From the NCBI RefSeq assembly GCF_009914755.1, contig NC_060935.1: a stretch of DNA of 64,000 nt. The stretch is one strand, 5' to 3'. Positions 5,592-8,600 of this stretch are shown one piece after another (the stretch's first letter is position 1; the number at the start of each line of letters is the position of its first letter). The translations under genes were made by a program, and so were the position numbers. Source of the stretch: the human T2T-CHM13v2.0 reference genome, Homo sapiens. The notes below the pieces were generated by a model. The model did not search any database and was not told where the DNA came from. It was given only the letters and a program-made list of their open reading frames with translations.

Positions 5592-5609
5592 TTCGCCACA
5601 TTTTCTTAA
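5592..5609 (-). other. Inter-unit junction: L1-endonuclease-type site and putative 13-bp 5' TSD (5595-5607) plus 3 extra nt GAA (5592-5594)
   Basis: Minus strand reads GGATT^AAGAAAATGTGGC-GAA-GGAGGAGCCAAGATGG; plus strand reads TTTTCTT/AA at 5601-5609. Confidence 0.65.
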
Positions 5610-8600
5610 TCCAGTCTATCGTTGTTGGACATTTGGGTTGGTTCCAAGTCTTTGCTATTGTGAATAGTGCCACAATAAACATACGTGCGCATGGGTCTTT
5701 ATAGCAGCATGATTTATAATCCTTTGGGTATATACCCAATAATGGGATTGCTGGGTCAAATGGTATTTCTAGTTCTAGATCCCTGAGGAATCGCCACACT
5801 GACTTCCACAATGGTTGAACTAGTTTACAGTCCCACCACCAGTGTAAAAGTGTTCCTGTTTCTCCACATCCTCTCTAGCACCTGTTGTTTCCTGATTTTT
5901 AATGATTGGCATTCTCACTGGTGTAAGATGGTATCTCATTGTGATTTTGATTTGCATTTCTCTGATGGCCAGTGATGATGAGCATTTTTTCATGTGTCTG
6001 TTGGCTGCATAAATGTCTTCTTTTGAGAAGTGTCTGTTCATATCCTTCGCCCACTTGTTGATGGGGTTGTTTGTCTTTTTCTTGTAAATTTGTTTGAGTT
6101 CATTGTAGATTCTGGATATTAGCCCTTTGTCAGATGAGTAGATTGCAAAAATTTTCTCCCATTCTATAGGTTGGCTGTTCACTCTGATGGTAGTTTCTTT
6201 TGCTGTGCAGAAGCTCTTTAGTTTAATTAGATCCCATTTGTCAATTTTGTCTTTTATTGCCATTGCTTTTGGTGTTTTGGACATGAAGTCCTTGCCCATG
6301 CCTATGTCCTGAATGGTAATGCCTAGGTTTTCTTCTAGGGTTTTTATGGTTTTAGGTCTAACGTTTAAGTCTTTAATCCAACTTGAATTGATTTTTGTGT
6401 AAGGTGTAAGGAAGGGATCCAGTTTCAGCTTTCTACATATGGCTAGCCAGTTTTCCCAGCACCATTTATTAAATAGGGAATCCTTTCCCCATTGCTTGTT
6501 TTTCTCAGGTTTGTCAAAGATCAGATAGTTGTAGATATGCGGCGTTATTTCTGAGGGCTCTGTTCTGTTCCATTGATCTATATCTCTGTTTTGGTACCAG
6601 TACCATGCTGTTTTGGTTACTGTAGCCTTGTAGTATAGTTTGAAGTCAGGTAGTGTGATGCCTCCAGCTTTGTTCTTTTGGCTTGGGATTGCCTTGGCGA
6701 TGCAGGCTCTTTTTTGGTTCCATATGAACTTTAAAGTAGTTTTTTCCAATTCTGTGAAGAAAGTCACTGGTAGCTTGATGGGGATGGCATTGAATCTGTA
6801 AATTACCTTGGGCAGTATGGCCATTTTCACGATATTGATTCTTCCTACCCATGAGCATGGAATGTTCTTCCATTTGTTTGTATCCTCTTTTATTTCCTTG
6901 AGCAGTGGTTTGTAGTTCTCCTTGAAGAGGTCCTTCACATCCCTTGTAAGTTGGATTCCTAGGTATTTTATTCTCTTTGAAGCAATTGTGAATGGGAGTT
7001 CACTCATGATTTGGCTCTCTGTCTGTTGTTGGTCTATAAGAATGCTTGTGATTTTTGTACATTGATTTTGTATCCTGAGAGTTTGCTGAAGTTGCTTATC
7101 AGCTTAAGGAGATTTTGGGCTGAGACAATGGGGTTTTCTAGATATACAATCATGTCATCTGCAAACAGGGACAATTTGACTTCCTCTTTTCCTAATTGAA
7201 TACCCTTTATTTCCTTCTCCTGCCTGATTGCCCTGGCCAGAACTACCAACACTATGTTGAATAGGAGTGGTGAGAGAGGGCATCCCTGTCTTGTGCCAGT
7301 TTTCAAAGGGAGTGCTTCCGGTTTTTGCCCATTCAGTATGATATTGGCTGTGGGTTTGTCATAGATAGCTCTTATTATTTTGAAATACGTCCCATTAATA
7401 CCTAATTTATTGAGAGTTTTTAGCATGAAGGGTTCTTGAATTTTGTCAAAGGCCTTTTCTGCATCTATTGAGATAATCCTGTGGTTTTTGTCTTTGGCTC
7501 TGTTTATATGCTGGATTACATTTATTGATTTGCGTATATTGAACCAGCCTTGCATCCCAGGGATGAAGCCCACTTGATCATGGTGGATAAGCTTTTTGAT
7601 GTGCTGCTGGATTCGGTTTGCCAGTATTTTATTGAGGATTTTTGCATCAATGTTCATCAAGGATATTGGTCTAAAATTCTCTTTTTTTGTTGTGTCCCTG
7701 CCCGGCTTTGGTATCAGAATGATGCTGGCCTCATAAAATGAGTTAGGGAGGATTCCCTCTTTTTCTATTGATTGGAATAGTTTCAGAAGGAATGGTACCA
7801 GTTCCTCCTTGTACCTCTGGTAGAATTCGGCTGTGAATCCATCTGGTCCTGGACTCTTTTTGGTTGGTAAACTATTGATTATTGCCACAATTTCAGCTCC
7901 TGTTATTGGTCTATTCAGAGATTCAACTTCTTCCTGGCTTAGTCTTGGGAGAGTGTATGTGTCGAGGAATGTATCCATTTCTTCTAGATTTTCTAGTTTA
8001 TTTGCGTAGAGGTGTTTGTAGTATTCTCTGATGGTAGTTTGTATTTCTGTGGGATCGGTGGTGATATCCCCTTTATCATTTTTTATTGTGTCTATTTGAT
8101 TCTTCTCTCTTTTTTTCTTTATTAGTCTTGCTAGTGGTCTATCAATTTTGTTGATCCTTTCGAAAAACCAGCTCCTGGATTCATTAATTTTTTGAAGGGT
8201 CTTTTGTGTCTCTATTTCCTTCAGTTCTGCTGTGATTTTAGTTATTTCTTGCCTTCTGCTAGCTTTTGAATGTGTTTGCTCTTGCTTTTCTAGTTCTTTT
8301 AATTGTGATGTTAGGGTGTCAATTTTGGATCTTTCCTGCTTTCTCTTGTGGGCATTTAGTGCTATAAATTTCCCTCTACACACTGCTTTGAATGTGTCCC
8401 AGAGATTCTGGTATGTTGTGTCTTTGTTCTCGTTGGTTTCAAAGAACATCTTTATTTCTGCCTTCATTTCGTTATGTATCCAGTAGTCATTCAGGAGCAG
8501 GTTGTTCAGTTTCCATGTAGTTGAGCGGTTTTGAGTGAGATTCTTAATTCTGAGTTCTAGTTTGATTGCACTGTGGTCTGAGAGATAGTTTGTTATAATC

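What the first reader, a model, noticed from the sequence alone, without database searches (positions are those of the whole stretch)
5595..6250. Monomer looks chimeric: older L1PA4-like 3' segment fused to an L1PA2-like body
Seen and recalled: the ~0.58 kb next to the junction (unit-1 coordinates 1-540) shows states I associate with older subfamilies: ttataatcc, gggattgctggg, [25 protein letters not shown]. From ~615 onward the states are young-type: KDKIDKW, LGITIQ, gaattgattt, [21 protein letters not shown], a young ORF1 coiled coil and a short 5'UTR. The older segment also holds two of the six ORF2 lesions. Inference: the switch at ~540-615 (6173-6250 in unit 2) marks the founding crossover between host and inserted L1, which independently supports the nested-insertion model. 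A few older-looking sites near the ORF1 end and EN (IKSFTDK, ttattgtgtggg) may be conversion patches or lineage-specific states.
Basis: partly seen in the sequence, partly recalled or inferred. Interest (0 to 1): 0.7.

Follow-up and report, generated by a model that had tools for sequence, protein, structure and literature searches.

The report
Chimeric L1 array from nested insertion
Each 5.6-kb repeat of this human chromosome 11 array is a hybrid of two jumping-gene (LINE-1) copies, a younger one that inserted into an older one, and recombination between them likely started the array, which is itself already described.

Summary
Chimera confirmed. The 5,633-bp unit is 580 bp of an old, 5'-truncated host L1 joined to the body of a younger L1PA2-type element. 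The array's ends hold both parents. The left end is the whole insert with its poly(A); the right end is the host's 5' part. A 13-bp target-site duplication brackets the insert. The unit differs from the insert at 30 sites in positions 1-580 and at 4 in 581-5633.

The right-end host copy is also insert-derived over unit positions 581 to about 2020, sharing 13 private substitutions and a 4-bp deletion. So the founding crossover could lie anywhere in 1.44 kb, and the switch may be the edge of an earlier gene-conversion tract (about 0.5) rather than the crossover (about 0.4). The host is about three times older than the insert; 'L1PA4' is plausible but untested against a consensus. The older-looking EN/ORF1 sites cannot come from the host.

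The array is in a 2026 preprint as 16 'L1HS' copies. My term searches of its main text found no nested or chimeric origin.

The parts
5595..11227 (-). One complete array unit (5,633 bp). 16 internal units at chr11:94,155,430-94,245,556, between a left end copy (insert) and a right end copy (host 5' part), both outside the window
5595..6174 (-). Host-derived segment: 3' part of ORF2 of the older L1 (unit 1-580)
   Evidence: Differs from the right end copy at 2 sites and from the insert at 30; old-type at 7 of 7 panel sites
5595..5607 (-). 5' copy of the 13-bp target-site duplication; the 3' copy (one mismatch) abuts the insert's poly(A) at chr11:94,149,412
6175..6249 (-). Host-to-insert switch interval (75 bp without informative site)
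6175..7614 (-). Insert-derived tract shared by all units and both end copies (unit 581-2020); the founding crossover can lie anywhere in it. The right end copy returns to host type between unit 1945 and 2054
6250..11227 (-). Body of the younger L1PA2-type insert, same as the left end copy except at 4 sites
   Evidence: L1PA2 label of the left end copy from bioRxiv 10.64898/2026.05.14.725010
9321..10337 (-). ORF1, open, 338 codons
5595..9257 (-). ORF2, cut at the junction and broken six times: stops at 8859-8861, 7034-7036 and 5875-5877; deletions of 5 bp near 8631, 4 bp near 7022 and 1 bp near 5895
10338..11227 (-). 5'UTR of the insert, short type (lacks the segment of about 129 bp)
   Evidence: meaning of the deletion from bioRxiv 10.1101/429613 passages

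Best explanation
The unit is a hybrid of an old host L1 (580 bp) and a younger L1PA2-type element inserted into it in the same orientation, and the array likely began when a 1.4-kb gene-conversion tract made the two neighbours identical and an unequal crossover inside that tract duplicated the segment. Shown: the nested structure with target-site duplication, the parentage of each segment, and the insert-derived tract in the right-end host copy. Step 1 (structure shown, retrotransposition inferred): a full-length L1PA2-type copy inserted near the end of ORF2 of a 5'-truncated host of about 3.1 kb, leaving homologous ORF2 stretches 5.6 kb apart in direct orientation at about 94% identity. Step 2 (inferred from sharing): the insert took four ORF2 lesions before duplication, since every copy examined carries them over the part it spans. 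Step 3 (inferred): conversion from insert to host over unit 581 to about 2020. Step 4 (inferred): unequal crossover within that perfect identity made the first unit. Step 5 (inferred): further unequal exchange expanded and homogenised it to 16 copies. On this reading the switch at window 6175-6249 is the edge of the conversion tract, not necessarily the crossover. Steps 1-2 and the chimera: about 0.97. The order in steps 3-4: about 0.5.
For: Left end: host poly(A) and 3'UTR, TSD copy, insert poly(A) and 3'UTR, whole insert. Right end: unit 1-2748, then unique DNA. Right end versus unit: 2 differences in 1-580, 3 in 581-2020, 55 difference columns in 2021-2748. About 74-103 differences would be expected in 581-2020 had the host sequence stayed. 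13 private substitutions and a 4-bp deletion in that tract are shared by unit and both ends. Private-site density is 0.9% there, like the insert (0.7-0.8%) and unlike the host (2.6%). Trees by segment: unit with right end outside the younger clade in 1-580; all three together inside the young clade in 581-2020 (100/100); unit with left end in the young clade and right end outside in 2021-2748. The longest identical run between host and insert in 1-580 is 89 bp, against 1.44 kb after conversion. That crossing over favours long perfect identity is established knowledge, recalled.
Against: One haplotype cannot order the events. A crossover at 581-655 followed by overwriting of the right end from a unit gives the same three sequences. 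Both ends share two derived alleles (unit 1459, 1519) that all 16 internal units lack. Neither order explains this without a further exchange, so the tract edges may have been reworked. The host's own sequence for 581-2020 is lost here, so the upper edge of the bracket rests on dispersed copies, and those panels were chosen by similarity to array segments.
Confidence: 0.5

Rival explanations
1. One reading: nested insertion, then the founding crossover fell in window 6175-6249 between 94%-identical host and insert. Later a unit overwrote the right end copy up to about unit 2020 by a second crossover or a long conversion.
For: The sharp single switch in all units. Because unit and right end are the same over 1-580, such an overwrite leaves no visible left edge, so no coincidence is needed. 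Edge copies of arrays exchange with internal units (established knowledge, recalled).
Against: It needs two separate exchanges that each resolve in diverged DNA. In the shared tract the right end is closer to the left end than to the units (100/90), not the reverse; a further event is needed, as in the best explanation.
Confidence: 0.4
2. The old 580 bp came from elsewhere (template switch during retrotransposition, or conversion from a dispersed older L1), not from a host at this locus.
For: Isolated old-type sites occur in the insert body (unit 1632, 2022, 2094, 3243, 3493, 4384, 4762, 5477).
Against: The segment matches the right-end host copy at 578 of 580 positions, while the best of 23 dispersed copies reaches 96%. 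It begins with the TSD and continues in register into the host 3' end left of the array.
Confidence: 0.03
3. One L1 lineage fits the whole monomer and there is no breakpoint.
For: None found. In raw distance the first 290 bp are about as far from the young as from the old copies (4.4% versus 4.1%), because private changes dominate.
Against: 30 of 580 versus 4 of 5,053 differences to the insert; 7 old sites then 30 young of 33 (p=6e-6); incongruent trees.
Confidence: 0.01
4. The end-copy mosaic or the array is an assembly artefact.
For: Units are near-identical (mean 1.9 differences over 78 pairs of 13 units). No reads were available to check.
Against: The array, its L1PA2 and L1P1 flanks and 0-15 units recur across 94 HPRC haplotypes. 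The end copies carry their own private alleles.
Confidence: 0.03

Closest known systems
chr11 LINE-1 array, hs1 chr11:94,140,954-94,254,695 (bioRxiv 10.64898/2026.05.14.725010; section 10 read whole, other passages by term search)
   Same: Same locus: 16 back-to-back copies in hs1, ORF1 and 5'UTR kept, flanked by L1PA2 and L1P1 copies, 0-15 units across 94 haplotypes, two unit groups never mixed in one haplotype.
   Different: The preprint calls the units young L1HS. Here they are duplicates of the flanking L1PA2-type insert plus 580 bp of the older flank. Main-text counts: 'chimer' 0, 'crossover' 0, 'target site' 0, 'chimpanzee' 0, 'nested' 1 in another context. Its supplements could not be read; they might list the locus among its 35 recombinant calls.
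Transposable-element-mediated rearrangements, L1-L1 duplications (PMC9675761; passages seen)
   Same: Recombination between two same-orientation elements of one class leaves a recombined element at the junction; 4 LINE-1 duplications among 493 events.
   Different: Here one partner sits inside the other, so the duplicated segment is all L1 and head-to-tail. It was amplified to 16 copies, and a 1.4-kb homogenised tract hides the breakpoint.
TE-derived large tandem arrays (PMC2588610; 12 of 14 passages seen)
   Same: Multi-kb repeat units made of transposon sequence, shaped by putative unequal crossing over.
   Different: Those units are mixtures of older TE fragments; this locus did not appear in the passages seen. 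This unit is one near-full-length young L1 with promoter region and open ORF1.

Membership tests
L1HS | ACA (Ta) at 3'UTR positions 5930-5932; older elements have GAG (PMC6354063 passages) | tested here: not met
   The insert's 3'UTR in the left end copy has GAG; internal units have no 3'UTR.
L1PA2 | Short 5'UTR lacking the 129-bp ZNF93 site (fixed in L1PA3 and later) | tested here: met
   The unit lacks about 125-130 bases present in 4 of 5 old-panel copies that reach the 5'UTR; three young copies align without that gap. Shared with late L1PA3 and L1HS, so not specific.
L1PA2 | Best match to the L1PA2 consensus / RepeatMasker label | not testable with these tools
   No Dfam or Repbase here. 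The preprint labels the left flanking copy L1PA2. Its 3' end differs from 10 young-panel copies at 12-22 of about 365 sites.
L1PA4 (host) | Best match to the L1PA4 consensus rather than L1PA3 or L1PA5 | not testable with these tools
   No labelled consensus. The preprint labels the right flank L1P1. The link between the host's 3'UTR motifs and the name L1PA4 is recalled only.
L1PA4 (host) | Groups with copies that keep the long 5'UTR and is clearly older than L1PA2 | tested here: met
   Host segments fall outside the younger clade, unresolved among older copies including L027 and L035, which keep the long 5'UTR. Private substitutions 2.6% versus 0.7-0.9%. Fits early L1PA3 to L1PA5.
TPRT insertion (nested L1) | Target-site duplication, poly(A) tail, endonuclease-type site | tested here: met
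   13-bp duplication with one mismatch, poly(A) abutting the 3' copy, and a TT|AAGA site on the L1 sense strand; likeness to the TT/AAAA consensus is recalled knowledge.
TE-mediated rearrangement by homologous recombination | Junction in homologous register between two same-orientation elements | tested here: met
   The unit is collinear with dispersed L1 copies across 581-655 with no insertion or deletion.
TE-mediated rearrangement by homologous recombination | Breakpoint located against the unrearranged allele | not testable with these tools
   Only the CHM13 haplotype is held; no other human or ape assembly.
Autonomous L1 source element | Open ORF1 and ORF2, 3'UTR and poly(A) | tested here: not met
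   ORF1 open; ORF2 broken six times in units and four times in the left end copy; units lack 3'UTR and poly(A).

The most novel reading that the evidence does not exclude
A single nested L1-in-L1 insertion, primed by a 1.4-kb gene conversion, is a recurrent birthplace of macrosatellites: the two unit groups that never mix within a human haplotype are independent foundings from the same nested pair with different exchange points, each amplifying a promoter-plus-ORF1 cassette up to 16-fold.
Probability: 0.2. Interest if true: 0.68.

Novelty: new variant of a known kind. Interest (0 to 1): 0.42.

Why it matters
It gives a base-level origin for a copy-number-variable human array described only in 2026. 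It also questions that array's label: the 16 'L1HS' copies are duplicates of one dead L1PA2-type element with a host tail, so they should not count as young retrotranspositions. Both parents survive at the array ends, which makes the locus a natural test of how conversion and unequal crossover between 94%-identical repeats start a macrosatellite. It shows too that a chimeric junction need not mark the crossover. No function or phenotype is shown.

Tried and rejected
Tandem Repeats Finder returned nothing; its period limit is 500. Raw window distance to panels is weak in unit 1-290, so site tallies and the end copies were used instead. A dispersed donor for the two alleles shared by both ends was sought: none of 22 dispersed copies among the 40 best matches exceeded 98%, and panel copies had the unit state at 23 of 23 and 22 of 22 (the local older copy L016 has the end-copy base at 1459). 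Host conversion patches in EN/ORF1: rejected, because the host stops at unit 2748 and the flanking sites are young-type. A TSD for the host itself could not be read beyond an A/T run. Literature: searches with 11q21/LINE-1/tandem, L1PA2/tandem array/chr11/CHM13, nested insertion/unequal crossing/macrosatellite, tandem L1/chromosome 11, pre-existing L1/tandem duplication and PANX1/IZUMO1R/L1HS showed only the 2026 preprint for this locus in their listings. PMC10883270 has no hit for tandem, chr11 or chimer. Two papers wanted for the 129-bp deletion and for the T2T repeat annotation were not held. PMC4083085 passages gave only broad age limits, so subfamily ages are recalled.

Full report
Setting. 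The window is wholly a head-to-tail L1 array on the minus strand. Junctions fall at window 5595 and every 5,633 bp after (one unit 5,632), and ten complete units differ by 1-5 sites from the first. A junction probe found 17 junctions at 99-100% identity between chr11:94,155,355 and 94,245,642, which gives 16 internal units.

The parents survive at the ends. I fetched 70 kb around the array. From the left: unique DNA, a poly(A) and 3'UTR of an older L1, a 13-bp sequence, a second poly(A) and 3'UTR, then a whole L1 copy (left end, chr11:94,149,796-94,155,429), the 16 units, and a right end copy covering unit 1-2748 (94,245,557-94,248,304) that stops in unique DNA. The 13 bp beside the second poly(A) match, with one mismatch, the 13 bp that begin every unit and abut the 5' end of the preceding L1. 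That is a target-site duplication at a TT|AAGA site. So a full-length L1 inserted, in the same orientation, near the end of ORF2 of a 5'-truncated host of about 3.1 kb. The nested model is thus shown by the flanks, without subfamily recall.

The chimera. The unit differs from the left end copy at 30 sites in 27-580 and at 4 in 581-5633, two of which (3099, 4655) vary among units. It differs from the right end copy at 2 sites in 1-580 (p=4e-26). To type segments I fetched dispersed copies: 20 of the 23 non-array matches to unit 1-580, 5 of 39 matches to the left end's 1-581 and 5 of 22 matches to unit 581-2020, five of these extended toward the 5' end. Best dispersed identities were 96% for the old segment, 99% for the left end's version of it, 98% for 581-2020 and 95% for the right end's 2021-2748. 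For the site tally I dropped 4 of the 20 old-panel copies (L025, L030, L034 looked younger; L026 is rearranged). The unit is old-type at 7 of 7 sites in 1-580, young at 17 of 18 in 581-2020 and 13 of 15 in 2021-2748, and young at 79 of 86 beyond. Trees with 19 of the 20 old copies eligible (33, 23 and 17 rows after a coverage filter) are incongruent in the same way. The panels were picked by similarity to array segments, which biases raw distances; the three-way comparison of unit and end copies does not depend on them. Against the ORF2 protein of solved structures (9K6G), the open stretch at window 5907-7028 differs at 12 of 284 residues on the insert side and 8 of 89 on the host side. The last host allele is unit 580 and the first young-typed site is 656, so the switch lies in window 6175-6249.

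Names and ages. The insert has GAG, not ACA, at the 3'UTR diagnostic (PMC6354063 passages), a short 5'UTR, and is labelled L1PA2 in the preprint. Private substitutions are 2.6% in both host segments and 0.7-0.9% in insert segments over 1-2748 (1.6% over 2749-5633, where panels are thin), so the host is about three times older. With recalled ages (L1PA2 about 7.6 My, L1PA4 about 18, L1PA5 about 20) that fits L1PA4 or L1PA5. The name is untested.

Lesions. ORF1 is open. ORF2 has six lesions; four lie in insert sequence and are shared with the left end copy, two lie in the host segment and are absent from it. The insert was therefore probably dead before duplication (inference).

The right end copy is old in 1-580, insert-derived in 581 to about 2020, and old again in 2021-2748 (13 of 15 sites old). 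In the middle tract it differs from the unit at 3 sites where 74-103 are expected, and it shares 13 private substitutions and the 4-bp deletion with unit and left end. All three copy types are thus one sequence over 1.44 kb, and a crossover anywhere in it yields the observed unit. Two histories fit. (B) Conversion of the host by the insert first, then an easy crossover in perfect identity; the switch is the tract edge. (A) Crossover at 581-655 first, then overwriting of the right end by a unit. B needs one exchange in diverged DNA and one in identical DNA; A needs two that resolve in diverged DNA; the longest identical run seen between the parents is 89 bp. I put B at 0.5 and A at 0.4. This weighting is inference, not a measurement.

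Unexplained. Both ends share derived alleles at unit 1459 and 1519 that all 16 units lack and that no dispersed copy among 22 carries together. This needs an exchange between the ends that skipped the units, a later overwrite of one unit that then swept the array, or recombination between haplotypes. It does not favour A or B. Units differ by a mean of 1.9 sites over 78 pairs of 13 complete units (13 of 16), so homogenisation is recent.

Older-looking sites elsewhere. The host ends at 2748 and cannot be their donor. Lineage states or recurrent mutation are the simpler reading; short conversion from a dispersed copy is not excluded.

What is known. The array is described in bioRxiv 10.64898/2026.05.14.725010 (section 10 read whole; passages) as 16 L1HS copies with L1PA2 and L1P1 flanks, 0-15 units per haplotype and two unmixed unit groups. 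Term searches of its main text found no nested or chimeric account; its supplements could not be read and may bear on this. L1-L1 recombination making duplications is a known class (PMC9675761 passages). The L1HS label probably arises because units lack the 3'UTR on which subfamily calls lean (recalled; inference).

Verdict. The feature is real, the locus and the class of mechanism are known, and the anatomy appears unreported in the papers searched. New variant of a known kind, interest 0.42.

Noticed in passing
L012:5255 and 5315; L015 right end copy (unit 1459, 1519; window equivalents 7053, 7113): Both end copies, about 96 kb apart, share two derived alleles that all 16 internal units lack.
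   Followed up: partly
L016:4102-9864 (chr11:94,255,102-94,260,864): A near-full-length older L1 in the opposite orientation 7 kb right of the array, 91% identical to the unit over most of its length, with the long 5'UTR; used as outgroup.
   Followed up: partly
L013:5063 onward (unit at chr11:94,161,063): The second internal unit has the insert-type base at unit 27, a CpG site; recurrent mutation or a short conversion from the left end copy.
   Followed up: no
L015 right end copy, unit 2109: One young-type base inside the host-type part 2021-2748; possible small patch or recurrent change.
   Followed up: no
G000:C9:24586709-24586868, C11:82090515-82090668, C12:11159262-11159422 and others: Several dispersed loci match the whole 161-bp junction probe (5'UTR start joined to ORF2 end) at 81-93%, which suggests other L1 insertions at the same site of a host L1, i.e. 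other potential array founders. Not fetched.
   Followed up: no
window 50658 unit boundary (unit at chr11:94,223,026): One unit is 5,632 bp and carries three changes rare among units (1-bp deletion at unit 2617, substitutions at 2770 and 3784; 3784 is shared with the unit at 94,234,291).
   Followed up: no
L017:3692-9931: Old, 65-69% identical L1 fragments further right of the array.
   Followed up: no
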